A stretch of DNA of 44,217 nucleotides from Alphaproteobacteria bacterium (lineage in GTDB: Bacteria > Pseudomonadota > Alphaproteobacteria > Rs-D84), in the NCBI GenBank assembly GCA_017450905.1, contig JAFSST010000026.1, positions 1-44,217 of the forward strand, in the 5' to 3' direction. How positions within the stretch are numbered: position 1 is the stretch's first letter; every line of letters begins with the position of its first letter. Below, piece after piece: positions 1 through 38,177 of this stretch. The position numbers and the translations under genes were made by a program. The notes below the pieces were generated by a model. The model saw only the letters and a program-made list of their open reading frames with translations. It was not told the DNA's origin and ran no database searches.

Positions 1-146
1 ATGTTTTTATGCCCTTGTGCATCAATTCTGCACATGATATGATTTCTGAAATCCGTAAGAGTAATTTGCTCAATCATAACGATTAACCACTTGTTTCTTG
101 TCCAGATTAAAAACTTTATCCCCTTTTTGCAAGGATAAAACGAACA

Positions 147-165
147 GGGTGGCGAAAAGCCACCC
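147..165. terminator. GC-rich hairpin just 3' of tRNA-Cys (likely its terminator)
   Basis: GGGTGGC-GAAAA-GCCACCC perfect 7-bp stem. It lies immediately downstream of the minus-strand tRNA-Cys, and T-rich sequence follows on both strands. Confidence 0.5.
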
Positions 166-175
166 CGTTTTAATT

Positions 176-249
176 TGGAGGCCTGGGTCGGAATCGAACC
201 GGCTTACAAGGATTTGCAGTCCTCTGCATAACCATTCTGCCACCAGGCC
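176..249 (-). tRNA. tRNA-Cys (anticodon GCA), CCA encoded
   Basis: The reverse complement reads GGCCTGG...CTGCAAA...GGTTCGATTCC...CCAGGCC-T-CCA. It has a 7-bp acceptor stem, a GCA anticodon in a 7-nt loop, a TTCGATT T-loop and a U discriminator as expected for Cys. There is one C.A mismatch in the T-stem. Confidence 0.88.
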
Positions 250-277
250 GTGTAGTCTAAATCCTAGCAAAAAAAAA

Positions 278-306
278 TTGTTTTTCAACAGAAAAAAATG
301 TATAAT
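278..306 (+). promoter_or_regulatory. Candidate sigma70 promoter for the efflux operon
   Basis: TTGTTT (278-283), 17-nt spacer, TATAAT (301-306), preceded by TG. Confidence 0.4.
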
Positions 307-331
307 TATCCCCGATAAAAGGCGAGAGAAT

Positions 332-1657
332 TTGAAAATCAAAAATATACCAATAATTATGGTGTTTATCCCATCAATTGCTTTTGCAGCGGATGATGAT
401 TGTATGTCACGCAAAAATGTCCCAAACACCGTTATGACGTTGCAACAGGTTGTTGAAATGGGATTGTGTCGAAATCCTGAAACTGCATCGGCGTATTATT
501 CGTTGGAATCGGCACGGTTAAACAAAAATGCCGGGTATGCAAGTTATTTGCCATCGGTTAATGCATCGGCATCGGTTGGTAAAAGTCATCAAAATGAACA
601 TTGGGGGGACGTGGCGTATGGTGCATCAATTTCTGCATCGTATTTGATTTTTGATTTTGGGAAACGATTGGCGGATTTAAATCAGTTGTCGGCTGCGTGG
701 CGTGCAACGGGTTTTGAATATAACGAACGTGTGCAAAATTATGTGTATGGCGTTATCGGGGCGTATTATGCGTTGTTGAACGCTGATGCCGATGTAATCA
801 GTGCAAAATCTTTACAGTCGGTCGCCCAAACCGCGTTAGATACCGCAAATAAAAAATTCAAGGCCGGGGTCGTTGCCAAGGCCGATGTATTAAAGGCCGA
901 AACCACATTGGCCAGTCGCAATCTGGATTTAGAGCGTGCAAAAAACAATCGTGAAATTGCCAAGGGAACATTGTTAACAAAATTGTCTTTCCCGGCCGAC
1001 CAGGAAATCACTATTGCCGATATGGCCGGCGATTTTGGCAGTGAACGCGAAAATAAAAGTATTGATGATTTAATTAAAATTGCCCGTGAAAAACGTCCGG
1101 ATTTATTGCGGGCAACCGCTAACAAGGATGCCGCGTGGCATCGCCGTAACAGTGCGTTTTTGAAAAACTTGCCCAGTATCAGTGCAACCGGAACATTGTC
1201 GTGGAATGATGACAGTGCGAACTTTTTCGGAACGGGTTCACAGCACATCGGGGGCAGTATTGGTATACGGGCATCAATGCCGTTGTTTGCCGGGTTCGCA
1301 AATATGTATGGTGTGCGTAGTGCTCAGGCAAATTACGACAGTGCCCAGGAACAATTACGTGGCACAAACAATGCGGCAATGTTGGATGTGTTCAGTGCAT
1401 ATCAAAACTATAAAACCGCACAAACCGTATTAACCCAGACCGAGGCTTTACTTAAATCTGCAACCGAGAGCGAAAAAGTTACCGCCGGTATGTACAAGGT
1501 TGGGCGTGCAACGATGTTGGATTGGCAAACGGCACAATCTGAATTGGTTTCCGCACAAAAACAAAATAATGCTGCGAAATACGACTTGTTTACCAAGCGT
1601 GCCGCGGTCGCATTGGCAATTGGTGATATTAAATCCGAAATAGAAAAGGAAAAATAA
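332..1657 (+). CDS. tolC: TolC-family outer membrane efflux protein
   Basis: The translation has typical TolC/OMF repeats (LQQVVEMGLCRNPE..., ...AKADVLKAETTLASRNLDLERAKNN..., second repeat ...AQANYDSAQEQLRG...). The ORF-track start at 98 overlaps tRNA-Cys, so it is too long. An in-frame TTG at 332 gives signal peptide MKIKNIPIIMVFIPSIAFAA, and ATG 359 is the alternative. The stop overlaps the next gene start (TAATG). Confidence 0.82.
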   Translation: MKIKNIPIIMVFIPSIAFAADDDCMSRKNVPNTVMTLQQVVEMGLCRNPETASAYYSLESARLNKNAGYASYLPSVNASASVGKSHQNEHWGDVAYGASISASYLIFDFGKRLADLNQLSAAWRATGFEYNERVQNYVYGVIGAYYALLNADADVISAKSLQSVAQTALDTANKKFKAGVVAKADVLKAETTLASRNLDLERAKNNREIAKGTLLTKLSFPADQEITIADMAGDFGSERENKSIDDLIKIAREKRPDLLRATANKDAAWHRRNSAFLKNLPSISATGTLSWNDDSANFFGTGSQHIGGSIGIRASMPLFAGFANMYGVRSAQANYDSAQEQLRGTNNAAMLDVFSAYQNYKTAQTVLTQTEALLKSATESEKVTAGMYKVGRATMLDWQTAQSELVSAQKQNNAAKYDLFTKRAAVALAIGDIKSEIEKEK

Positions 1658-13941: not shown

Positions 13942-14018
13942 GGATGTTTAGCTCAGTTGATTAGAGCATCTCGTTTACACCGAGAGGGTCGGGGGTTTGA
14001 GTCCCTCAACATCCACCA
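13942..14018 (+). tRNA. tRNA-Val (anticodon TAC), CCA encoded
   Basis: GGATGTT/AACATCC acceptor, GCTC..GAGC D-stem, TCTCG-TTTACAC-CGAGA anticodon arm, GGGGG-TTTGAGT-CCCTC T-arm, A discriminator plus CCA. Confidence 0.93.
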
Positions 14019-14025
14019 AAAATTC

Positions 14026-14050
14026 AAACCGGCTTTGCCGGTTTTTAATT
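14026..14050 (+). terminator. Terminator after tRNA-Val
   Basis: AAACCGGC-TTT-GCCGGTTT followed by a T-rich tail. Confidence 0.75.
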
Positions 14051-14072
14051 TTTGGAATGGTTGTTTGTTTTG

Positions 14073-14100
14073 TTGACAATCTGATTTTATTGTATATAAT
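14073..14100 (+). promoter_or_regulatory. Consensus sigma70 promoter
   Basis: TTGACA (14073-14078), 16-nt spacer, TATAAT (14095-14100). Both hexamers are perfect, and it lies about 35 nt upstream of ATG 14136. Confidence 0.7.
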
Positions 14101-14135
14101 TCCTGGGGTGATTAATTAATTCAAAGGTGGTTTTT

Positions 14136-14516
14136 ATGAAAAGATTACAAACATCCCTGGATGCGGCAAATAAAAAGGATATCAAAGACAAGGCCAAAAA
14201 GGACGAGGTTGTTATTGGTTTGGCCAATACATTAAGCAAGCACGGTGTTGTTTACAAAGATGGTGTGTACAAAACAAAAAGCAAAGAGGGGTATCTTATT
14301 AAACAAACCTATTATCTTATCCCGGACGAAAAAATTTATGTATGTCTTTTGCAAAATGATGGTTACAAAACCAAAAAAGATTTGGTCGAAGTAAATATGG
14401 ACTATAATTTACGCAACAGATTGGATATCAGAAGTCGCGGCAAGGTTTTATATTCTTTTTCTGATGGGCCGTCCATAACAAATATATTAACCTTACTGGA
14501 ACGCAAATGCAGATAA
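14136..14516 (+). CDS. Hypothetical protein (126 aa), ORFan A of the tRNA-Val islet
   Basis: SD AAGGTGG lies 5 nt upstream of ATG 14136 (the ORF-track GTG at 14127 is less likely). It has its own consensus promoter and its own terminator. No signal peptide and no recognised domain. Confidence 0.6.
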   Translation: MKRLQTSLDAANKKDIKDKAKKDEVVIGLANTLSKHGVVYKDGVYKTKSKEGYLIKQTYYLIPDEKIYVCLLQNDGYKTKKDLVEVNMDYNLRNRLDIRSRGKVLYSFSDGPSITNILTLLERKCR

Positions 14517-14545
14517 CAAACAGCCGGCAAATGCCGGCTTTTGTT
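14516..14545 (+). terminator. Rho-independent terminator after ORFan A
   Basis: AGCCGGC-AAAT-GCCGGCT extended by ACAAA/TTTGT, with a T-run. Confidence 0.85.
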
Positions 14546-14556
14546 ATATTTTCATA

Positions 14557-14584
14557 TTGAAAAACTTTTTGTATGTGCAATAAT
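14557..14584 (+). promoter_or_regulatory. Candidate sigma70 promoter for ORFan B
   Basis: TTGAAA (14557-14562), 16-nt spacer, AATAAT (14579-14584). Confidence 0.45.
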
Positions 14585-14638
14585 GTAAAGTGCTACGAAT
14601 CGGGAGTGTGAGCGGGGTTACCATAGCAGGAGTTTACT

Positions 14639-15058
14639 ATGGCCGATAAAAAAGATATGCGTAGTTATTTGAACGATGCATATATCCATAATCGTGATGA
14701 ATACAGTTTGAAAAACGATGTATACAAGATTGTTACAGATGACATCAAATATAATAACGTTAATATAAATAACGATAAATATGATTTAGTAACAATGGAT
14801 GATTTTGTCGTAAATCAACAGATTATAAATATAGATAATGTGGATTACTATTTGCATTATTTGTGGAATACCGGTGTTGTGGCACGTGATAAGTCGCACG
14901 CGATATATACATTCAGCATCAATGCAAATTCAAAAATGAAAATGTTTGTAATCGACAAAAACACTCGCCACAGTCTGTTTGTATTCAAAGAACGATTTGA
15001 TGTGTTGGGGATTACAGATTTGATTCGTAAAAAACAAGAAAACGGCCAGGCAAAGTAA
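14639..15058 (+). CDS. Hypothetical protein (139 aa), ORFan B; very AT-rich, Asn/Asp/Lys-rich
   Basis: SD AGGAG lies 8 nt upstream. No signal peptide and no recognised domain. A weak hairpin (AAACCGC...GTGGTTT plus T7, about 15088-15118) follows. Confidence 0.6.
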   Translation: MADKKDMRSYLNDAYIHNRDEYSLKNDVYKIVTDDIKYNNVNINNDKYDLVTMDDFVVNQQIINIDNVDYYLHYLWNTGVVARDKSHAIYTFSINANSKMKMFVIDKNTRHSLFVFKERFDVLGITDLIRKKQENGQAK

Positions 15059-15151
15059 AAACGGTTGATATTAAATGGCTTGTTTCAAAAAAAACCGCTG
15101 TGAAAGGTGGTTTTTTTGCGGCACAGAAAATATAAAAAGGGTGATATATAA

Positions 15152-15499
15152 ATGGAAAAAAACTCCAAAGAAACAGTCCAGAAAAAACAAAATGTTTCGA
15201 AAAAAACATCAAAGTTTGATTCGTTCATGGACCGTATTCGTTTTGCCTTTGTATCGATGTTTAATCGTCCGAAAAAACGGGAAAAAGTTTCGGATATGAC
15301 CGATGATGAATATAACGAGATAACGGTATTGCGTTATGTTTTATTAAAATCTGCATTGAACAGCGAAGAATTACGTGGCACAATCAAAGGCTCGTTCGGT
15401 TTGGATGTTTCCACAGAAGAAATAGAAAACAAACTTGCAATGACATTGCGTGATTTGATAAAACAACATAACAAAAGCATAAAGCAGGAAAAACGATGA
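15152..15499 (+). CDS. Hypothetical small basic protein (115 aa), ORFan C
   Basis: SD AAGGGTG is upstream and the stop overlaps the start of the next gene (ATGA). It has a Lys-rich N-terminus and no recognised domain. Confidence 0.55.
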   Translation: MEKNSKETVQKKQNVSKKTSKFDSFMDRIRFAFVSMFNRPKKREKVSDMTDDEYNEITVLRYVLLKSALNSEELRGTIKGSFGLDVSTEEIENKLAMTLRDLIKQHNKSIKQEKR

Positions 15500-16272
15500 A
15501 AAAAACAACAAATATAAAATTATTGGTGTTAATGGGGATTGCCGGCCTGGTTATGGGGTGTGGCAATAAAAAGAAACAAAATGCCCAAAGTGCCAATTTT
15601 TATGATTGTCTGACAAAGGAAAAGGTCGCCAATGGATACGATACGTTGGCCCGTGAAAATACCGATACGACAGTGGAATTAGAACAGATAGAAGATATTT
15701 ATTATGCTAATTCATTGGCCGGAAAAATTCAGTCTGAATTTGAAAAATCGGCATTGTCTGTTGTGCTGGATTGCAATAGAAAAATAAAATCTGTATTGAA
15801 GCGTAACAGTGTTGCGATGGCCGGGGATATTATCCGTTTGGATGACTGTTATTTTATTATGATGGATAACGAAGTGTTTTCTGATTGGTCCGGGGCCATG
15901 TGTGGTGATATCCAGGAATTAATCGAGAAAGCCGGTGTTTTTGGTGACAAGGAAGACTTTATAATAAAAAACGTATTTCAAAGCATTCAAAATGCCAAGT
16001 CGCGTTTGCAACAAATTAGAAAATCAATAGAATCTAAATACACCAAAAGTCGTGGTATCAGATTTATTGAATGGCCTGGAATGGGGAAATATCTGCGTAT
16101 AGAACAAGTTGACAGTATCAACCAGGTCCCAGAACCAACGAAATTATCGGCCAAGGATGCGGCAAAATTGGATTCACTGTGGAATGTTATATGTCACAAG
16201 CGTGAAATCGAAAAAAAGAAAGATTCGTTATTAAACGAGGCATGGATTGCGGCAAATGAAAAAGAATATTAA
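15496..16272 (+). CDS. Hypothetical lipoprotein (258 aa), ORFan D
   Basis: Signal peptide with lipobox MKKTTNIKLLVLMGIAGLVMGC. It is translationally coupled to ORFan C. The mature part contains several Cys, and no domain was recognised. Confidence 0.68.
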   Translation: MKKTTNIKLLVLMGIAGLVMGCGNKKKQNAQSANFYDCLTKEKVANGYDTLARENTDTTVELEQIEDIYYANSLAGKIQSEFEKSALSVVLDCNRKIKSVLKRNSVAMAGDIIRLDDCYFIMMDNEVFSDWSGAMCGDIQELIEKAGVFGDKEDFIIKNVFQSIQNAKSRLQQIRKSIESKYTKSRGIRFIEWPGMGKYLRIEQVDSINQVPEPTKLSAKDAAKLDSLWNVICHKREIEKKKDSLLNEAWIAANEKEY

Positions 16273-16280
16273 AAACATCA

Positions 16281-16309
16281 ACAGGGATTAACCCTGTTTT
16301 TATTTTTTT
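16281..16309 (+). terminator. Rho-independent terminator after ORFan D
   Basis: ACAGGG-ATTAA-CCCTGT followed by TTTTTATTTTTTT. Confidence 0.8.
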
Positions 16310-32583: not shown

Positions 32584-33285
32584 TTATAGAAGGTTTTTTG
32601 TTAACTCGTCAATTGTTTTTTGTTCGATTTGAATAATTTTTCCCACGGGTAAATTTTTCAAACTTATTGGCCCGAAACTGGTTCTGTGCAGGGTTTTGAC
32701 CGGCAATCCACAATGTTTTAAAACTATGCGGATTTCATTCTTTTTACCTTCGGTTACAGTGATGCGTAATTTTTTTGTGGGCATAACTTCTATTTTCATT
32801 GGGCGATATTTTATTCCATCAATGGTTACACCCGAACGGGCCTTGTCCAATTTTGACATATTGTTTCCGTTAACATCGGCAATGTATGTGCGTGGAATGT
32901 TTGAAGCAGGCTGGGTTAATTTTCGTGCCAACAACCCATCATTTGTCATCAATAATAATCCGGTTGTTTTATAATCTAATCGTCCAACGTATTTCAGGTT
33001 TTTATATTCCGCCGGTAATATGTCGTATATTGTTTTACGTCCGCGTGGGTCCGCCGTGGTTGTCATTGTATTGATAGGCTTGTGAAAAGCGTATAATTTT
33101 GTATCGGTTCGTTTTTCTATCTTTTTCCCGTTGATGGTTATGATGTCCGAATCTTCAACGAACAATACCGGTGTTGTCGCGACCGCACCATTGATGGCAA
33201 CCGCACCGTGTGCAATTAATTCTTCGGCTTTGCGGCGTGATGCGATACCGGCATCAGCGATAAATTTTGCGATTCGTATTTTCAT
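32584..33285 (-). CDS. Pseudouridine synthase, RsuA/RluB family, with N-terminal S4 domain
   Basis: MKIRIAKFIADAGIASRRKAEELI (S4 domain), catalytic motif YVGRLDYKTTGLLLMTNDG. Start set at ATG 33285; the ORF-track extension is Cys/Arg-rich and overlaps rsmE. Confidence 0.88.
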   Translation of the reverse strand: MKIRIAKFIADAGIASRRKAEELIAHGAVAINGAVATTPVLFVEDSDIITINGKKIEKRTDTKLYAFHKPINTMTTTADPRGRKTIYDILPAEYKNLKYVGRLDYKTTGLLLMTNDGLLARKLTQPASNIPRTYIADVNGNNMSKLDKARSGVTIDGIKYRPMKIEVMPTKKLRITVTEGKKNEIRIVLKHCGLPVKTLHRTSFGPISLKNLPVGKIIQIEQKTIDELTKNLL

Positions 33286-33938
33286 TGTGTTATCTTTCCA
33301 ATTGCAACAACCGCGGCAACTTCGGCACGCAGAATAGTTTTTCCCAATGATATCCCGCACGCATCCGCCGAATCCAGTGCCGAAAATTCATCATCTGAAA
33401 ATCCGCCTTCGGGACCAATGAGTATCGATTTTGCATCCGTTGGTATTGCACAGGCCGGACGACCATAGGCAACACGTTCATCTGCAAAGCAAATGTTTGA
33501 CAGGTTTAAGTCTGAAAACTTAATTGGTTGGCGTATTTCGGGAACACTGTTACGATTCGATTGTTCGGCGGCCTCGATAACTATTTTTTTCATACGTTCC
33601 CAATTTATGTGATGTGCAACGGTGCGTTCGGTGATAACCGGTTGAAAACAGGCGACCCCCATTTGGGTTGCCATATTCAACATATCATCCAATCGCTTGA
33701 TTGGTGCAAACATCAATTTAATATCGCCCGATGGGTCAGAATGATTCGTTTGTTCGCCAATTATCAGGGAACGTTCATCATCCGCCAAATTTGCGGAAAA
33801 TTCAACCCCACTGTTGAAACACAGGCATTTTTTTGTTCGCATCACGTGCGTCAGATAATGAGACAATGATTTATCAATCGCAACGATTTGGTTTGATTTT
33901 ATTTCCTGGTCAATAAAAATTCTTGGTATATTTTTCAT
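33282..33938 (-). CDS. rsmE: 16S rRNA m3U1498 methyltransferase RsmE
   Basis: IPRIFIDQ...HYLTHVMRTKKC (PUA-like N-domain) and a SPOUT C-domain (IEAAEQSNRNSVPEI..., ILIGPEGGFSDDE..., LGKTILRAEVAAV). The stop overlaps the next gene start. Confidence 0.85.
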   Translation of the reverse strand: MKNIPRIFIDQEIKSNQIVAIDKSLSHYLTHVMRTKKCLCFNSGVEFSANLADDERSLIIGEQTNHSDPSGDIKLMFAPIKRLDDMLNMATQMGVACFQPVITERTVAHHINWERMKKIVIEAAEQSNRNSVPEIRQPIKFSDLNLSNICFADERVAYGRPACAIPTDAKSILIGPEGGFSDDEFSALDSADACGISLGKTILRAEVAAVVAIGKITQ

Positions 33939-33976: not shown

Positions 33977-33985
33977 TGATATAAT
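33977..33985 (+). promoter_or_regulatory. Extended -10 promoter (TGaTATAAT) 9 nt upstream of the coupling-protein ATG
   Basis: TG at 33977-33978 and TATAAT at 33980-33985. ATG at 33995 has no SD, so the expected transcription start site (TSS) is 1-3 nt from the ATG. Confidence 0.5.
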
Positions 33986-33994
33986 CATAACACA

Positions 33995-36238
33995 ATGGCA
34001 GAAAAGTTCAAGATTTTATCCGCAGGAAAAGACAGCAAGGGTTTGAATATATTCAAATCCAGTGCTTACGAGGAACACGAACAAACACCAATGGCACAAA
34101 CTTTTTGGGTTTTGCGTTGGACTGTTACGGTTTGGTTAATATGTGCGGTTGTGTTTTGCTTTTCATTTATATTTGAACATATCTGGCGGTATGGTTGGTC
34201 GCCGGCGACATTTACGTGGATACGTGTGTATCTGTCGAATTTGTTTCATACGTTTGGTTTTTCTGCGATTGCATCGGTCCCAGATTGGATTGTTCGTTGT
34301 TTTATGAATCCTGATTATGCGTGTATTGTTCCGCTGTTGCCGATAATTGCGTTTTTTATTTTGACCGATGAAACGCTGAAAAAGGAATTTAATCCGTATG
34401 GCAAGGACAAGTACGATAAAAAATCTTCACGTGTTGCGAACGAAGAAGATGTTAAAAAAATGGGCTTGTTTGATGGTTTTATGATGGTTTTGGGGTATTT
34501 CAAGAAAAAACCTTTGAAATTGCCTAAAACATTATCGGTTTTGTGTTTGGCACCTCCGGGAACCGGTAAAACCCAGGGCGTTGTATTGCCGACCATTTTT
34601 GAATGTGATGATGTTTCTATGATTATAAACGACCCTAAACCCGAAGTGGACAAGGCTTCCAGTGGTTATCGTGCAACCAAGGGACCGGTGTTTATTATGG
34701 ATTGGGGTGGTCAAGACGAACCAGACAAGGGAATTTATTATCCATCGTGGAATCCGTTGTCGCCGGGACATATCCCGTTCAGTGTCGAACAACGCGAATT
34801 GTATGTTGACTATATTTGCGATGTGTTGGTGCCTGATGCCGTGGGCAGCAGTGCCGACCCCCACTGGACACAATCTGGACGTGCCGGATTGGCGGGATTT
34901 ATTCAATTTATTGTTTCCAAAATTGAACGTGCCAAGGCCGATGATTATTTCTATTCGCGTTTGCAATCTGGGACATTTGATGCCCAAGATGCGGCGGTTT
35001 TATCGGACTATTATTTTTCAATGGTAAATGACCCAAATGCCTTTGCCGCCCAGGCATTGATTAAAAATGGTGAATTAAACGCAATGAATTATGTCCACGT
35101 TGGTTCGTGGGCGAATATACCATCGGCATGGTTGGGCAAAGAGGCATCTTTTTCTATGATGTTGGATTGGATTACCGAGGCACAAATCGCCGTTGCAAAT
35201 GATTTGGCGGAACGTCAAAAGCAGGGCGACCAGACCGTTATGATGGCGGACCCATTAAAAGATTGGTTGGATGCGGCGGTGAACGAGGCACGTGCGTTTT
35301 CTTATTCAAACCGTGCGGTGGCGGAACTTACCAAATTGGCAAATACGCCGTCAACGGAACGCGGTTCTATTTTGTCGACAATTTTGACGGGCTTGGCGAT
35401 ATTCAGAAACGCGGCTGTTCGGAACAGAACATCTCATTCGGATTTTCATTTTTCTGATATGCGTGGGATGATTGACCCGGCTGATGGCAAGATGAAACCA
35501 GTAACGGTTTATCTGTCTATTAATATGGTTGATGCCAAGGCATTAAATCCGATTACCGCGATATTTATTGAAACTATGTCGAATTTCTTGTTGGCAAATC
35601 CGCCGGAACACGTTGGACGCAGTGGCGAAAAAATGGGGCCGTATCCGGTGTTGTTCCTGTTGGACGAAATGCCGAAAATGCAAAAGTTGCAGGCTGTTAT
35701 CCAGGGGCCTGATGTTGGACGTGGTCAAAAAATTTCCTATTTGTTCATTGGTCAGGATTTACACCAAATAGCGGAAAAATACGGAAATGATGCGGCATCT
35801 ACGTTGATATCAACAACCGCGGCCAAGGTCGTTTTGCGACAAAATGATATTGACACGGCAAAACGTTTTGCGGAAATGATGCCACGTAAAATCACAATGA
35901 AAAAAGAAAAAGGTGCGGACGGCAAAGAGGTCGAAGTTCCAAAAGAAGAACCTTTGTTCAGTGAATATGATATTTTGAAGTTAAAAGATGCCAAGGATGA
36001 TAAACCGGGCGAGGTCCTTATTCTTTACGAGGGGTGGTATCATCGACCGATTAAGGGTGAATTGCGATTTGCTTATGCTGATCCAAAATTGTCCACTTAT
36101 ATTAAAATGGGTCGTTCATCGCCTTTGCCGGAATTTTTGGTACCGACACATCATGCGATATTGGAATATGCGGGAACGCCACGTTTTTATAATCCACAAA
36201 CCAAGGAATTAAAAGAACTGGTTCCGGAAAATAAATAA
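33995..36238 (+). CDS. Type IV secretion coupling protein-like ATPase (VirD4/TraG/TraD family)
   Basis: N-terminal TM helices (FWVLRWTVTVWLICAVVFCFSFIF; ACIVPLLPIIAFFILT), Walker A LCLAPPGTGKTQGVVLPT (nt 34550-34573) followed by IINDPKPE, Walker B PVLFLLDEMPKM, and the T4CP C-terminal motif YLFIGQDLHQIAEKYG...VVLRQND. Confidence 0.85.
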   Translation: MAEKFKILSAGKDSKGLNIFKSSAYEEHEQTPMAQTFWVLRWTVTVWLICAVVFCFSFIFEHIWRYGWSPATFTWIRVYLSNLFHTFGFSAIASVPDWIVRCFMNPDYACIVPLLPIIAFFILTDETLKKEFNPYGKDKYDKKSSRVANEEDVKKMGLFDGFMMVLGYFKKKPLKLPKTLSVLCLAPPGTGKTQGVVLPTIFECDDVSMIINDPKPEVDKASSGYRATKGPVFIMDWGGQDEPDKGIYYPSWNPLSPGHIPFSVEQRELYVDYICDVLVPDAVGSSADPHWTQSGRAGLAGFIQFIVSKIERAKADDYFYSRLQSGTFDAQDAAVLSDYYFSMVNDPNAFAAQALIKNGELNAMNYVHVGSWANIPSAWLGKEASFSMMLDWITEAQIAVANDLAERQKQGDQTVMMADPLKDWLDAAVNEARAFSYSNRAVAELTKLANTPSTERGSILSTILTGLAIFRNAAVRNRTSHSDFHFSDMRGMIDPADGKMKPVTVYLSINMVDAKALNPITAIFIETMSNFLLANPPEHVGRSGEKMGPYPVLFLLDEMPKMQKLQAVIQGPDVGRGQKISYLFIGQDLHQIAEKYGNDAASTLISTTAAKVVLRQNDIDTAKRFAEMMPRKITMKKEKGADGKEVEVPKEEPLFSEYDILKLKDAKDDKPGEVLILYEGWYHRPIKGELRFAYADPKLSTYIKMGRSSPLPEFLVPTHHAILEYAGTPRFYNPQTKELKELVPENK

Positions 36239-36243
36239 TAACG

Positions 36244-37491
36244 ATGTTCAGGTTTTGTTGTTCTTTATTGACGTTGTGTTTGTTATCTGGTTGTGCGATG
36301 ACGGTCGAGAGACATTTGGATTCTGTGCGGAATGATTTCCTGGGGACGAACGAGATTGATAAAGATTTTTCAAATAAAAATAATCTGGATTTATTGTTTA
36401 CGGCGGATTCATTGTTTCACACAATGGATTATTCGTCTGCTGATGCCGCATACGAAGAATTTAACAAAAGAAATACGGATGTAACACGGGCAAGTTTTTC
36501 CCGTGAAGCCACAAGTGTATTATTCGGGGCAAATGTAAACGAATATCGGCCATATATGATGGATATGCTGTTCGTGTCGTATTATCAGTTGTGGATGGCG
36601 TTGGCCGAATCCAGATATGACGATGCACGTGTCATAATAAACCAATCATATGCACGCCAGCAAGATATGTCGCGTGCCTATGCCAAAACCATAGAAAACA
36701 ATAAACAAGAATTATTAAAACATTCTGAATTGAATCGTGCTTTGGAATCAGATAACACGACATGGACGGCATATCGTGATATTATGAATCCGGCCTTGAT
36801 GTATTTGTCGGGAATTTACTTTTTGAATAACGGCGAATTTAGTGATGCGGAAACATATTTGAAACGTGCGTCTGGGATGATGCCTAATAACAGTTTTATT
36901 GCGTCTGATTTAAAATATGCGGAAAAAGAAACGGTTCCGAATAATACCGTGTGGGTGTTTATCGAAGATGGTTTCGCACCAAAATTGGTTGAAAAGCGTG
37001 TCAGTTTGCCGATTGTTTCGGGGGATGTTAAATCAATGGTTACGGTGGCAACATCCGAACCAAAGTTTTTTAATTCCACCATCAAAATAGATGCCGCCCA
37101 GGATTTAGCAAATGTTGATGCGATGTTTATGACCGAATACAACGAATACAGGATAAATGATACGGCACGTGCGTTAACATCTGCGGTGGCACGTATGGCG
37201 TTACAATCATCGGTATATAATTCAAAAAACAGTGTCGCACCAATTCTGGGGTTGTTGTCAACCGCTTATTCGGAAATTACAACAAATGCCGATATCAGGA
37301 CATGGGTTACGTTACCCAAAAACATATCGGTTATGCGTGTGCAAAAAAATAAAAGCGGCTTGATTGATTTAACATCAAATGGTAATCTTATATCACAGGT
37401 GTCTGTCCCGAACGATGGAAATAATTATCTGGTTTATGTTCGTGTTGGGAAAAACAAATATGATACCAAGGTAATAAAATTAAAAAAATAA
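36244..37491 (+). CDS. Lipoprotein (415 aa), helical-repeat N-half; resembles the large lipoproteins often paired with LpoB-like genes
   Basis: Lipobox LCLLSGC. It has TPR-like helices (FHTMDYSSADAAYEEF, NNGEFSDAETYLKRASGMMPNN). It starts 5 nt after the T4CP stop and ends 16 nt before the next lipoprotein gene. Confidence 0.6.
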   Translation: MFRFCCSLLTLCLLSGCAMTVERHLDSVRNDFLGTNEIDKDFSNKNNLDLLFTADSLFHTMDYSSADAAYEEFNKRNTDVTRASFSREATSVLFGANVNEYRPYMMDMLFVSYYQLWMALAESRYDDARVIINQSYARQQDMSRAYAKTIENNKQELLKHSELNRALESDNTTWTAYRDIMNPALMYLSGIYFLNNGEFSDAETYLKRASGMMPNNSFIASDLKYAEKETVPNNTVWVFIEDGFAPKLVEKRVSLPIVSGDVKSMVTVATSEPKFFNSTIKIDAAQDLANVDAMFMTEYNEYRINDTARALTSAVARMALQSSVYNSKNSVAPILGLLSTAYSEITTNADIRTWVTLPKNISVMRVQKNKSGLIDLTSNGNLISQVSVPNDGNNYLVYVRVGKNKYDTKVIKLKK

Positions 37492-37507
37492 AACCAAGGG
37501 GGAAAAT

Positions 37508-38125
37508 ATGAAAAGAATAATGTCTGTTGCATTATGTGCCGTGTTGGCGGCGTGTGGCGGAACCAGTGTTGTCGATTTGGATAACGCCCAGGAAGTATCT
37601 GCCATGCAAAATGTTATGGAATTGGAATACCGTGATTGGACATCAACCGCTGAAAAAATGACTAAATCGATGTTGACCAGTGGTGCTTTTTCACGTGTTA
37701 AAAATCCTGTTATTGCGATGGGGACTATTAAAAACGATACGATGCAACGTTTCGACACAGATATTTTAACCAAAAAGATTCGTTCAACATTGGTAAATTC
37801 TGGGCGTGCCCAGGTCGCAACCAGTTTCCGTAACAACAAGGCCGCCGAAGATGAAACAACATACGCAATGCGTCAAACACGCGATAATGCGGAATATGAT
37901 TCTTCGACAATCGCACAAAAGGGAACATTGGTTGCACCAAATATGTCGTTGTCTGGTAAAATGATTCAACGTAATTTGAAATTGGAATCTGGGTGGTTTT
38001 CGTCTGTTGATACGCGTGTAGAATACTATCTGCAATTAACATTGACCGATTTGAAAACAGGTTTGTCCGTATGGGAAGATGAACAACCAATTGTCAAAGA
38101 GGGTTCTCACGCACCAACGTGGTAA
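37508..38125 (+). CDS. LpoB-like (COG3417-type) lipoprotein
   Basis: Lipobox AVLAACGG. The pattern EYRDW...MTKSML, IAMGTIKNDTMQRFDTDILTKKIRSTLVNSGRAQV and VEYYLQLTLTDLKTGLSVWEDE parallels the E. coli LpoB C-domain (YDWNGAMQPMVSKML / VDSVNNRTNG... / LQMQLMLVQTGEIIW). Confidence 0.62.
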   Translation: MKRIMSVALCAVLAACGGTSVVDLDNAQEVSAMQNVMELEYRDWTSTAEKMTKSMLTSGAFSRVKNPVIAMGTIKNDTMQRFDTDILTKKIRSTLVNSGRAQVATSFRNNKAAEDETTYAMRQTRDNAEYDSSTIAQKGTLVAPNMSLSGKMIQRNLKLESGWFSSVDTRVEYYLQLTLTDLKTGLSVWEDEQPIVKEGSHAPTW

Positions 38126-38150: not shown

Positions 38151-38177
38151 ATTACCCCCAATTTTTTCGGGGGTAAT
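38151..38177 (+). terminator. Hairpin after the T4CP-lipoprotein operon
   Basis: ATTACCCCC-AATTTTTTC-GGGGGTAAT perfect 9-bp stem. There is no clean T-tail after it, so its function as a terminator is uncertain. Confidence 0.5.

What the first reader, a model, noticed from the sequence alone, without database searches (positions are those of the whole stretch)
33977..38125. Orphan VirD4/TraG-type coupling ATPase in a tight operon with two envelope lipoproteins, with no other T4SS or relaxase genes in 44 kb
**Seen in the sequence**
- The 747-aa protein has the full T4CP layout. It has two N-terminal TM helices, Walker A APPGTGKT followed by VVLPT...IINDPKPE, Walker B LFLLDEMPKM, and the C-terminal YLFIGQDLHQIAEKYG / VVLRQND block.
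- It is followed at 5 nt and then 16 nt by two lipoprotein genes. One encodes a 415-aa helical-repeat lipoprotein and the other a 205-aa LpoB-like protein.
- The trio ends in a 9-bp hairpin and starts at an extended -10 box (TGaTATAAT) only 9 nt from the ATG.
- The flanks are core genes (rsmE on one side, VIT/fabZ/lpxD on the other). No VirB4/VirB11, VirB6-10, relaxase, oriT-like repeat, integrase or plasmid gene is visible, and composition looks like the host by eye.

**Established knowledge**
- T4CPs normally work with a relaxosome or effector adaptors and a VirB-type channel.
- LpoB-type lipoproteins act on the peptidoglycan synthesis machinery from the outer membrane.

**Inference**
- One reading is that this is a piece of a scattered T4SS, as in some obligate intracellular alphaproteobacteria, with the lipoproteins playing VirB7/DotD-like roles.
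- The other is that a T4CP-like hexameric motor has been recruited into a new envelope module with an outer-membrane lipoprotein pair.
- The operon structure argues that the three proteins work together, and I do not know of a described system with that composition.
Basis: partly seen in the sequence, partly recalled or inferred. Interest (0 to 1): 0.78.

Follow-up and report, generated by a model that had tools for sequence, protein, structure and literature searches.

The report
Scattered secretion system's coupling ATPase
This is an intact VirD4-type coupling ATPase from a tiny-genome gut bacterium (Candidatus Enterousia, order Rs-D84); it is not truly orphan, because relatives carry virB3-virB4 elsewhere on the chromosome, and its two lipoprotein partners form an ancient but dispensable add-on.

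Summary
These are a 747-aa T4CP (two TM segments, Walker A and B, Pfam T4SS-DNA_transf 142 bits), a 415-aa lipoprotein at +5 nt, an LpoB-family lipoprotein at +16 nt, a TGaTATAAT box 9 nt before the ATG, a 9-bp terminal hairpin, and only core genes elsewhere in the 44 kb.

The contig comes from Candidatus Enterousia / order Rs-D84, gut and rumen Alphaproteobacteria with genomes under 1 Mb. The T4CP lies divergent from rsmE in every related locus with enough upstream DNA, and it is as conserved as housekeeping genes (66-90% identity).

It is orphan only locally. An Rs-D84 contig (L048) carries virB3-like and virB4 genes 5.6 kb from its T4CP. This VirB4 family is about as widespread as the T4CP and also sits among core genes. 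The closest plasmid relatives are VirD4 genes of complete VirB operons. This matches a dispersed chromosomal T4SS, as in Rickettsiales.

Where the lipoprotein pair is present, it always follows the T4CP. It is all-or-none: 48 loci have both genes, 41 have neither, none has one. It was lost about eight times without relaxing the T4CP.

I could not test whether VirB6 and VirB8-11 exist, or whether the window's own genome has virB4.

The parts
33282..33938 (-). rsmE (16S rRNA methyltransferase), the invariant divergent neighbour of the T4CP. Its real start is the ATG at 33938, which leaves a 56-nt shared intergenic region.
   Evidence: PF04452 at 114 bits. Gene calls of 217-219 aa in relatives. 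rsmE lies directly upstream and divergent in every related locus that holds enough upstream DNA.
33977..33985 (+). Extended -10 box TGaTATAAT, 9 nt before the T4CP ATG. There is no Shine-Dalgarno sequence, so the mRNA is expected to be leaderless or nearly so.
   Evidence: Sequence. Best promoter-like site, 10 of 12 with TG. Exact geometry in 68 of 91 distinct upstream sequences, 83 of 91 allowing small variation, and 0 of 91 with an SD core.
33995..36238 (+). VirD4-type type IV coupling protein (T4CP), 747 aa.
   Evidence: PF02534 142 bits, PF10412 63 bits, PF12696 58.6 bits. A family profile hits solved Cag5/Cagbeta 8DOL (2.4e-10) and TrwB 1E9R (2.4e-3). It is 29-33% identical (E 1e-65 to 1e-83) to VirD4 genes of VirB operons on alphaproteobacterial plasmids. 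565 species-level genomes carry relatives.
34100..34381 (+). N-terminal membrane domain: TM1 (about aa 36-66), a periplasmic loop of roughly 40-45 aa, and TM2 (about aa 103-129).
   Evidence: Kyte-Doolittle 19-residue windows above 1.5 only start at residues 36-48 and 103-111. AF2 predicts helices here, though the model has low confidence.
34550..34573 (+). Walker A motif APPGTGKT (aa 186-193).
   Evidence: Invariant columns A186-T193 in alignment A1.
35648..35668 (+). Walker B motif VLFLLDE (aa 552-558).
   Evidence: V552, L553, F554, L556, D557 and E558 are invariant in A1.
36244..37491 (+). Lip415, a lineage-restricted lipoprotein. It has an N-terminal TPR-like helical domain (aa 1-227) and a C-terminal beta-rich domain (aa 235-412) with no solved relative.
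   Evidence: Lipobox LSGC with Cys17 invariant. No Pfam or NCBIfam family. 469 homologues, all unnamed proteins from alphaproteobacterial MAGs. AF2 pLDDT 76, pTM 0.79. Foldseek against PDB gives only weak TPR matches, best E 6e-3. It lies directly after a T4CP in every locus seen.
37508..38125 (+). LpoB-family lipoprotein, 205 aa, preceded by an SD-like AAGGGGG.
   Evidence: PF13036 117.5 bits; TIGR02722 131.5 bits against a cut-off of 110.55. Lipobox LAAC. It is 21% identical over 153 aa to E. coli LpoB, E 5e-4, over the globular domain only. It is strictly co-present or co-absent with Lip415: 48 both, 41 neither, 0 single.
38151..38177 (+). 9-bp hairpin ATTACCCCC / GGGGGTAAT with a 9-nt loop, 26 nt after the LpoB-like stop codon. 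It is a putative terminator of the three-gene transcript, with a weak T-tail.
   Evidence: Sequence. The terminator scan did not list it; its 9-nt loop is longer than the scan's 3-8-nt limit.

Best explanation
**What it is**
- The 747-aa gene encodes the VirD4-type coupling ATPase of a vertically inherited type IV secretion system.
- The genes of that system are dispersed around the chromosome of Candidatus Enterousia / order Rs-D84. These are genome-reduced gut Alphaproteobacteria (under 1 Mb) that are thought to depend on partner cells.

**What is shown**
- The protein is an intact T4CP: membrane anchor, nucleotide-binding domain with invariant Walker A and B, and an all-alpha domain.
- It sits at a fixed core-genome position, divergent from rsmE, behind a conserved near-leaderless promoter.
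- It is as conserved as housekeeping genes.
- Genomes of the same lineage carry a similarly conserved virB3-like/virB4 island among core genes.

**What is inferred**
- The hexameric ATPase recruits substrates at the inner membrane and hands them to a VirB4-energised channel, for delivery to or exchange with partner cells.
- The substrates are more likely proteins than DNA, because no relaxase was seen.
- The two downstream lipoproteins (Lip415 and the LpoB-family protein) act together as one periplasmic or outer-membrane unit.
- That unit was placed in the T4CP operon in the ancestor of the clade. It is an accessory, because many lineages deleted it cleanly while keeping an equally constrained T4CP.
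For: **Identity as a T4CP**
- Pfam domains pass their cut-offs, the motifs are invariant and there are two TM segments.
- A family profile hits the solved coupling proteins Cag5 and TrwB.

**Ancestry**
- The nearest plasmid relatives are 29-33% identical (E 1e-65 to 1e-83).
- In the two plasmids inspected, the relative is the last gene of a VirB-type operon with a MobA/MobL relaxase. The Erythrobacter operon is annotated in full: VirB2, a small ORF in the VirB3 position, VirB4, VirB8, VirB9, VirB10 and a VirB11-type ATPase.
- The representative search shows a continuum of relatives from 65% down to 30% identity.

**Core, vertically inherited gene**
- 565 species-level genomes carry a relative.
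- TPR-rluB-rsmE divergent from the T4CP is seen in every locus with enough upstream DNA.
- T4CP identity of 66-68% in far relatives compares with mutS 69-72%, dnaX 71-78% and rsmE 55-65% in the same loci.
- GC is host-like.

**Not orphan in the lineage**
- L048 is an Rs-D84 contig whose T4CP is 68% identical to the window's. It has a virB3-like ORF (PF05101, 21.6 bits) and VirB4 (805 aa; PF03135 30.4 bits; tblastn 7e-123 to the Erythrobacter VirB4) 5.6 kb upstream of the T4CP.
- This VirB4 has 1460 homologue clusters; the top 120 are 77-96% identical.
- The island always sits among core genes: rpmJ, ychF, a SufBD-like gene, topA, dnaG, lpxK and lpxC.
- A 46% T4CP relative has VirB8 and VirB9 next to it.

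**Lipoprotein pair**
- It directly follows the T4CP, with median junctions of 6 and 17.5 nt, and is all-or-none: 48 both, 41 neither, 0 single.
- It occurs in both deep branches of the T4CP tree, with about eight independent deletions.
- Rearrangement breakpoints fall after the LpoB-like gene, not inside the trio.
- T4CPs without the pair show no relaxation: loop identity 0.61 against 0.58, overall 0.775 against 0.754.

**Lifestyle**
- Rs-D84 genomes lack most biosynthesis and are proposed to be obligate symbionts or parasites (PMC12306168).
Against: - VirB4 was not shown in the window's own genome or its 78-90% sub-clade. It is absent from the 44-kb contig and from the 5-8 kb seen beyond each end in near-identical strains.
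- Co-location on a single contig is proven only for L048. The other hint is one matching longest-contig length, P0454 and P0069 at 418,380 bp.
- No VirB6, VirB8, VirB9, VirB10 or VirB11 was seen in any Rs-D84 locus, so a complete channel is unproven.
- The virB3-like ORF scores just below Pfam's cut-off.
- All curated NCBIfam T4CP models score far below their cut-offs (best 113.6 against 250), so this is a divergent sub-family.
- Loci were found through the T4CP itself, so the data cannot show that the T4CP is universal in the order.
- The pair could have moved elsewhere in genomes that lack it next to the T4CP. This is not testable with the tools available.
Confidence: 0.6

Rival explanations
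1. The lipoprotein pair has nothing to do with secretion. On this view it is an envelope or peptidoglycan module: an LpoB-family regulator of a class A PBP plus a TPR lipoprotein partner. It ended up co-transcribed with the T4CP only because reduced genomes compact unrelated genes into shared transcripts. This rival concerns the role of the pair only, and it is compatible with the T4CP belonging to a dispersed T4SS.
For: - The 205-aa protein passes the curated LpoB models.
- The pair is dispensable for the T4CP: 41 of 89 loci lack it, and the T4CP is not relaxed where it is missing.
- The surrounding genes are envelope genes: fabZ, lpxD, ompH, a BamB-like gene and a porin-like gene.
- The genomes encode RodA, MreB and PBP2 (PMC12306168; L174).
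Against: - Lip415 is restricted to this lineage (469 hits).
- It was never seen anywhere except directly after the T4CP, even when everything downstream was rearranged.
- The 5-nt junction with no SD sequence implies translational coupling to the T4CP.
- Identity to E. coli LpoB is only 21%, and no PBP1B was shown.
Confidence: 0.3
2. One reading: the T4CP-like hexameric motor and the two lipoproteins form a self-contained, previously undescribed envelope machine that works without a VirB-type channel.
For: - The three-gene block is tight and ancestral, sharing one promoter and one terminal hairpin.
- No other T4SS gene lies in the 44 kb or just beyond it.
- No described system has this composition: PADLOC, Pfam and PDB searches found none.
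Against: - The pair was deleted about eight times, while the T4CP stayed equally conserved, including its periplasmic loop.
- A highly conserved VirB3/VirB4 island exists in the lineage, once on the same contig as the T4CP.
- The nearest relatives of the T4CP are bona fide VirD4 genes in VirB operons.
Confidence: 0.08
3. The dispersed T4CP/VirB4 apparatus moves DNA, not effector proteins. It would take up or release DNA, like ComB or the gonococcal genetic island, and so give a nucleotide-auxotrophic cell a source of nucleotides or a route for gene exchange.
For: - Rs-D84 lacks nucleotide biosynthesis (PMC12306168).
- The closest relatives are conjugative DNA-transfer T4CPs sitting next to relaxase, primase and topoisomerase genes.
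- The all-alpha (DNA/relaxase-binding) domain is retained (PF10412).
Against: - No relaxase or oriT-like element was seen near either island.
- From general knowledge, T4SS-based DNA uptake by ComB does not use a T4CP.
- Nothing here distinguishes between substrates.
Confidence: 0.12
4. The T4CP is a decaying remnant of an integrated conjugative element or plasmid, kept by chance.
For: - It descends from conjugative-type VirD4 genes.
- It stands alone in the window.
Against: - It is full length with invariant catalytic motifs.
- It shows 66-90% identity across hundreds of species at one fixed core position.
- Its promoter is conserved and its GC is host-like.
- There is no integrase, repeat or tRNA boundary at the locus.
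Confidence: 0.02

Closest known systems
Rickettsiales vir homolog (rvh) T4SS (Gillespie et al. 2009, PMC2653234)
   Same: - Both are chromosomal, vertically inherited P-type T4SSs in genome-reduced, host-dependent Alphaproteobacteria.
- In both, the genes are split into separate islets among core genes. The rvh system is described as 'an archipelago of five islets'.
- Here there is a T4CP islet and a virB3-virB4 islet.
   Different: - From my own knowledge, rvh virD4 sits at the end of a virB8-virB11 islet. Here the T4CP stands alone beside rsmE and heads an operon with two lipoproteins.
- VirB6 and VirB8-11, and the rvh-type gene duplications, were not found or could not be searched for.
- The hosts are gut and rumen bacteria of unknown partner, not intracellular parasites of eukaryotes.
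VirB/VirD4 conjugative T4SS of alphaproteobacterial megaplasmids (Erythrobacter aureus NZ_CP031358.1, Sphingosinicella sp. NZ_CP035502.1)
   Same: - These are the closest relatives with a known context.
- The T4CP is 29-33% identical over 76-95% of its length.
- VirB4 is 31% identical over 800 aa.
   Different: - There, all the genes form one operon with a MobA/MobL relaxase, a primase and a topoisomerase on a plasmid.
- Here there is no relaxase, the genes are dispersed on the chromosome, and a lipoprotein pair follows the T4CP.
Solved VirD4-type coupling proteins: H. pylori Cag5/Cagbeta (8DOL) and R388 TrwB (1E9R)
   Same: The nucleotide-binding and C-terminal regions match a profile of this family: E 2.4e-10 for Cag5 and 2.4e-3 for TrwB.
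   Different: - The single sequence finds no PDB chain at all.
- The match covers only about positions 430-700 of the profile.
- The region between Walker A and the matched core (about aa 240-420) and the invariant C-terminal PLPEFL motif are specific to this family.
E. coli LpoB, outer-membrane lipoprotein activator of PBP1B
   Same: - It is a lipoprotein and passes PF13036 and TIGR02722.
- It aligns with the globular domain of E. coli LpoB.
   Different: - Identity is only 21% (E 5e-4).
- The genomic context differs: ycfL-lpoB-thiK in E. coli against T4CP-Lip415-LpoB here.
- No PBP1B partner was shown.
- It is strictly paired with a lineage-specific 415-aa lipoprotein.
T4SS outer-membrane lipoproteins (VirB7, DotD)
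   Same: They are lipoproteins encoded with T4SS genes.
   Different: - No sequence or fold similarity was detected.
- From general knowledge, VirB7 is tiny and binds VirB9, and no VirB9 was found in Rs-D84.
- The pair is dispensable in about half of the lineages.

Membership tests
Type IV coupling protein (VirD4/TraG/TrwB family) | Sequence membership: the T4SS-DNA_transf, TrwB_AAD_bind and TraG-D_C domains score above Pfam's curated cut-offs | tested here: met
   142.2, 63 and 58.6 bits against cut-offs of 20.1, 20.5 and 22. A family profile hits Cag5 and TrwB.
Type IV coupling protein (VirD4/TraG/TrwB family) | Intact P-loop NTPase motifs (Walker A GxxGxGKT, Walker B hhhhDE) | tested here: met
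   APPGTGKT and LFLLDE are invariant across 16 relatives of 68-100% identity.
Type IV coupling protein (VirD4/TraG/TrwB family) | N-terminal membrane anchor with two TM helices and a periplasmic loop | tested here: met
   Hydropathy peaks occur only at about aa 36-66 and 103-129.
Type IV coupling protein (VirD4/TraG/TrwB family) | Membership of a named, curated T4CP sub-family (NCBIfam VirD4, TraG, TraD or CD1115 equivalogs) | tested here: not met
   The best hit, conju_CD1115, scores 113.6 bits against a cut-off of 250; PRK13897 VirD4 scores 85 against 728. This is a divergent sub-family of its own.
Type IV coupling protein (VirD4/TraG/TrwB family) | Co-occurrence with a VirB4-type ATPase / T4SS channel in the same genome | tested here: inconclusive
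   Met in a 68% relative, where both are on contig L048, and VirB4 is widespread in the lineage. It was not shown for the window's own genome or its sub-clade.
Conjugative (DNA-transfer) T4SS | A relaxase and oriT associated with the T4CP | tested here: not met
   No relaxase was found in the 44-kb window or in the 10-kb flanks of the T4CP and VirB4 loci. A genome-wide test was not possible.
Dispersed chromosomal T4SS of the rvh type | T4SS genes split into separate islets among core chromosomal genes and inherited vertically | tested here: met
   The T4CP islet lies beside rsmE in every locus with enough upstream DNA. The virB3-virB4 islet lies beside rpmJ, ychF and a SufBD-like gene in four independent contigs.
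Dispersed chromosomal T4SS of the rvh type | A full channel set (VirB6, VirB8, VirB9, VirB10, VirB11) present in the genome | not testable with these tools
   Whole genomes could not be read. None was seen in any Rs-D84 locus. VirB8 and VirB9 were seen only in a 46% relative lineage.
LpoB (activator of PBP1B) | An outer-membrane lipoprotein with the LpoB globular domain, above curated cut-offs | tested here: met
   Lipobox LAAC; PF13036 117.5 bits; TIGR02722 131.5 bits against 110.55.
LpoB (activator of PBP1B) | A cognate PBP1B with a UB2H domain, and activation of it | not testable with these tools
   The genome was not available. Identity to E. coli LpoB is only 21%.
Anti-phage defence systems | A match to a known defence protein model | tested here: not met
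   PADLOC gave no hit for any of the three proteins.

The most novel reading that the evidence does not exclude
Rs-D84 bacteria run a minimal, rebuilt T4SS. On this reading only VirB3, VirB4 and the T4CP survive from the ancestral machine. The canonical VirB7/9/10 outer-membrane core has been replaced by lineage-specific envelope proteins: the Lip415 and LpoB-like pair in some lineages, and the ~200-aa secreted ORF after virB4. The machine would serve a contact-dependent, parasitic or epibiotic lifestyle in the gut.
Probability: 0.15. Interest if true: 0.75.

Novelty: new member of a known kind. Interest (0 to 1): 0.4.

Why it matters
- Rs-D84 / Enterousia bacteria are common in rumen and gut metagenomes. 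They have genomes under 1 Mb with almost no biosynthesis, and how they obtain metabolites from partner cells is unknown (PMC12306168).
- In such a genome, a T4CP and a VirB4 conserved like housekeeping genes are strong candidates for the machinery of that dependence. The pilus-like genes noticed nearby add to the candidate list. The T4CP and VirB4 are not mentioned in the one genome paper I could read on this lineage.
- For T4SS biology, this is a second possible example, outside Rickettsiales, of a vertically inherited T4SS dispersed among core genes.
- It also offers a natural experiment. About half of the lineages carry a T4CP-linked lipoprotein pair and half have deleted it.
- If the canonical outer-membrane core proves to be absent, the system would be a new minimal architecture for a diderm T4SS.

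Tried and rejected
- **AF2 model of the T4CP.** Built from a 16-sequence alignment, it gave mean pLDDT 46, so it was unusable and was not fold-searched.
- **Single-sequence PDB searches.** No hits for any of the three proteins.
- **Foldseek of the Lip415 model.** Only generic TPR matches, best E 6e-3, and nothing for the C-terminal domain.
- **PADLOC.** No hit, so a defence system is rejected.
- **Literature.** The supplements of PMC12306168 are not held. Begmatov 2023 is not held. A search for 'Rs-D84' with 'secretion system' found one paper, on camel rumen microbiota, which I did not open.
- **Walking beyond both window ends in near-identical strains.** This found rnpA, accB, accC, sspB and a RecF/SMC-type ATPase gene on the left. 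On the right were three large pilin-like ORFs, a small Zn-ribbon ORF, a pseudouridine synthase and a large unannotated ORF. No T4SS genes appeared.
- **Pfam on large unannotated ORFs.** The 1307-, 983- and 366-aa (fragment), 455- and 436-aa ORFs and the small ORFs after virB4 gave no T4SS family.
- **tblastn of those small ORFs against reference VirB operons.** Nothing was found.
- **Relaxed constraint on the T4CP periplasmic loop after loss of the pair.** No difference.
- **ICE-remnant hypothesis.** Rejected on conservation, fixed synteny and host-like GC.
- **Direct test for VirB4 in the window's own sub-clade.** This failed because the top 120 VirB4 hits were all from the other sub-clade and no protein searches remained.
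- **Caveat on sampling.** Most loci were found through the T4CP itself, so they cannot show that the T4CP is universal in the order.

Full report
**1.

- The window carries three co-directional ORFs at 33995-36238 (747 aa), 36244-37491 (415 aa) and 37508-38125 (205 aa). The junctions are 5 and 16 nt.
- The first ORF passes Pfam's cut-offs for T4SS-DNA_transf (142 bits), TrwB_AAD_bind (63 bits) and TraG-D_C (58.6 bits).
- It has only two strongly hydrophobic segments, at about aa 36-66 and 103-129.
- Its Walker A (APPGTGKT), Walker B (LFLLDE) and QD.HQ blocks are invariant in relatives.
- The 415-aa protein has an invariant lipobox cysteine and matches no known family.
- The 205-aa protein passes both curated LpoB models.
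- TGaTATAAT ends 9 nt before the ATG.
- A 9-bp hairpin follows the last stop codon.
- Every other gene in the 44 kb is a core gene.
- tblastn with a full VirB/MobA query set finds nothing in the window except the T4CP.
- GC content is uniform.

**2. Where it comes from**

- The window is an entire ENA contig, ERZ27256819:k141_255466.
- Its relatives are labelled Candidatus Enterousia or uncultured Alphaproteobacteria/Rickettsiales, from rumen and gut samples.
- The group corresponds to GTDB order Rs-D84. Its genomes are under 1 Mb and lack amino-acid, nucleotide and lipid biosynthesis and respiration. The authors propose an obligate symbiont or parasite lifestyle (PMC12306168).
- Two complete chromosomes appear among the loci: OZ007020.1 (958,618 bp) and OZ246409.1 (716,531 bp).

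**3. The T4CP behaves like a fixed core gene**

- A motif-based genome scan found relatives in 565 species-level genomes.
- In every locus with enough upstream DNA, the T4CP is divergent from rsmE, with rluB and a TPR gene behind rsmE.
- In the far sub-clade the T4CP is 66-68% identical to the window's. In the same loci, mutS is 69-72%, dnaX 71-78% and rsmE 55-65% identical.
- The near-leaderless promoter geometry TGnTATAAT-9nt-ATG is exact in 68 of 91 distinct upstream sequences, and present with small variation in 83 of 91. None has a Shine-Dalgarno core.
- A single consensus match would mean little, since 12 promoter-like sites were found against 13.3 expected. It is the conservation that makes this feature credible.
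- Caveat: these loci were found through the T4CP, so they cannot prove that the gene is universal in the order.

**4. It is orphan only locally**

- The closest plasmid relatives are 29-33% identical (E 1e-65 to 1e-83), compared with 24% and 1e-17 for Campylobacter-type T4CPs.
- In the two plasmids inspected, the relative is the last gene of a VirB-type operon with a MobA/MobL relaxase.
- I used the VirB proteins from those operons as queries against all fetched loci. This gave a full-length VirB4 (31% identity over 800 aa, E 7e-123) in L048.
- L048 is an Rs-D84 contig whose T4CP is 68% identical to the window's. The VirB4 lies 5.6 kb upstream of that T4CP and is preceded by a 98-aa VirB3-like ORF.
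- With this VirB4 as query, 1460 homologue clusters were found. The best 120 are 77-96% identical and 802-810 aa long.
- In three further independent contigs the island is rpmJ, a virB3-like gene, virB4 and one or two small unknown ORFs. It is embedded among ychF, a SufBD-like gene, topA, dnaG, mreC/PBP2/rodA and lpxK/lpxC.
- A more distant chromosomal T4CP (46% identity, in a flagellated lineage) has VirB8 and VirB9 beside it.
- This pattern of vertically inherited T4SS genes split into islets among core genes is what is described for the Rickettsiales rvh system (PMC2653234).

**5. The lipoprotein pair**

- Lip415 is a small, lineage-restricted family of 469 hits, all unnamed.
- Its usable AF2 model (pLDDT 76) shows a TPR-like N-terminal half and a beta-rich C-terminal half with no solved relative.
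- In loci found through Lip415, it always lies between a T4CP and an LpoB-family gene, even though the genes after that differ (der, infB or a 198-aa ORF).
- Across non-redundant T4CP loci with enough DNA, 48 have both lipoprotein genes, 41 have neither and none has only one. Median junctions are 6 and 17.5 nt.
- On a T4CP tree the pair occurs in both deep branches. It is missing in about eight separate places, often as clean deletions such as T4CP then VIT, or T4CP then fabZ.
- The two lipoproteins therefore clearly act as one unit, and that unit was ancestrally part of the T4CP operon.
- It is nevertheless dispensable. T4CPs that lost the pair are no less conserved, either overall (0.775 against 0.754) or in the periplasmic loop (0.61 against 0.58).
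- The LpoB-like protein is only 21% identical to E. coli LpoB, so its function cannot be read from its name.

**6. Interpretation**

- Best-supported reading (confidence about 0.6): this is the VirD4-type coupling ATPase of a dispersed chromosomal T4SS in a partner-dependent, genome-reduced lineage, and the lipoprotein pair is an optional envelope accessory.
- The identity, ancestry, conservation and synteny of the T4CP are shown. So is the presence of virB3/virB4 in the lineage.
- It is inferred that the window's own genome has virB4, that a complete channel exists, and that the substrates are proteins delivered to partner cells.
- Rivals:
  - The pair is an unrelated peptidoglycan or envelope module that is merely co-transcribed (0.3; compatible with the main reading).
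  - The apparatus moves DNA, not proteins (0.12).
  - The trio is a self-contained new machine (0.08).
  - The T4CP is an ICE remnant (0.02).

**7. What could not be done**

- Whole genomes were not readable with these tools. VirB6 and VirB8-11, relaxases, class A PBPs and possible relocation of the pair therefore remain untested.
- The 5-8 kb seen beyond each window end in near-identical strains holds no T4SS gene. On the right it holds three large ORFs; two have clear prepilin-type leaders and the third a similar N-terminal hydrophobic segment.
- Large unannotated ORFs near either island match no T4SS family.

**8. Verdict**

- This is a new member of a known kind: a dispersed chromosomal T4SS, with a divergent T4CP sub-family that fails all curated NCBIfam sub-family cut-offs.
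- The undescribed but facultative T4CP-lipoprotein operon is the unusual feature.
- Interest is moderate. The T4CP and VirB4 are plausible keys to how these abundant, uncultured, tiny-genome gut bacteria exploit partner cells.
- About 15% probability remains that the system lacks the canonical outer-membrane core and is a genuinely new minimal architecture.

Noticed in passing
L179 3373-7236 (- strand), just beyond the window's right end in a near-identical strain; also L174 19390-22421 and L182 18462-22433: Three consecutive large ORFs (455, 398 and 436 aa) lie here. Two have clear prepilin-type N-termini (GGGLVEVLL..., RGAILIEFLL...) and the third has a similar hydrophobic N-terminus. A PilO-like gene, a PilB-type ATPase (T2SSE, 544-547 aa) and a PilC-type platform (T2SSF) sit about 6 kb from virB4. 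Rs-D84 therefore seems to encode a type IV pilus or T2SS-like apparatus, although the genome paper reports type IV pili only for another lineage.
   Followed up: partly
window 13942-16300: A low-GC stretch (0.34-0.36) lies downstream of tRNA-Val. It holds only small unknown ORFs (129, 139 and 115 aa) and a 258-aa predicted lipoprotein (15496-16272, lipobox LVMGC) with no Pfam match. It may be a small variable island at the tRNA.
   Followed up: no
window 98-1657 and 176-249: The long TTG-started ORF for the TolC-like OEP overlaps a tRNA-Cys on the opposite strand. Gene calls in the source contig start the OEP gene at 359, so the ORF's 5' extension is spurious.
   Followed up: partly
L048 4412-5691; L174 12414-13040; L175 12450-13678; L182 12433-13041: One or two conserved small ORFs always follow virB4 in Rs-D84. 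One is about 200 aa with a signal peptide, and a ~216-aa membrane-anchored one is sometimes present. They match no Pfam family. The first has weak homologues 8-9 kb downstream of the T4CP in a second gut lineage (L134, L136, L137, L162). They are candidate unrecognised T4SS parts.
   Followed up: partly
L097-L158 (metagenome loci): A second, large group of human-gut and rumen contigs carries a chromosomal T4CP 42-52% identical to the window's. It sits in its own conserved context: a ~415-aa unknown ORF directly upstream and a sigma factor about 7 kb upstream. In L157, flagellar hook genes and VirB8/VirB9 lie nearby. Chromosomal T4CPs may therefore be widespread in gut Alphaproteobacteria.
   Followed up: partly
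window 36103-36238 (T4CP aa 704-747): The C-terminal tail of the T4CP contains an invariant motif (MG..(S/T)PLPEFL.P.H.A..Y.G.P), which is not part of the Pfam T4CP domains. It may be a lineage-specific interaction site.
   Followed up: no
L088 14488-16093: A TaqI-like restriction endonuclease and an N6/N4 methyltransferase pair is inserted in one Rs-D84 genome, a few kb downstream of the trio.
   Followed up: no
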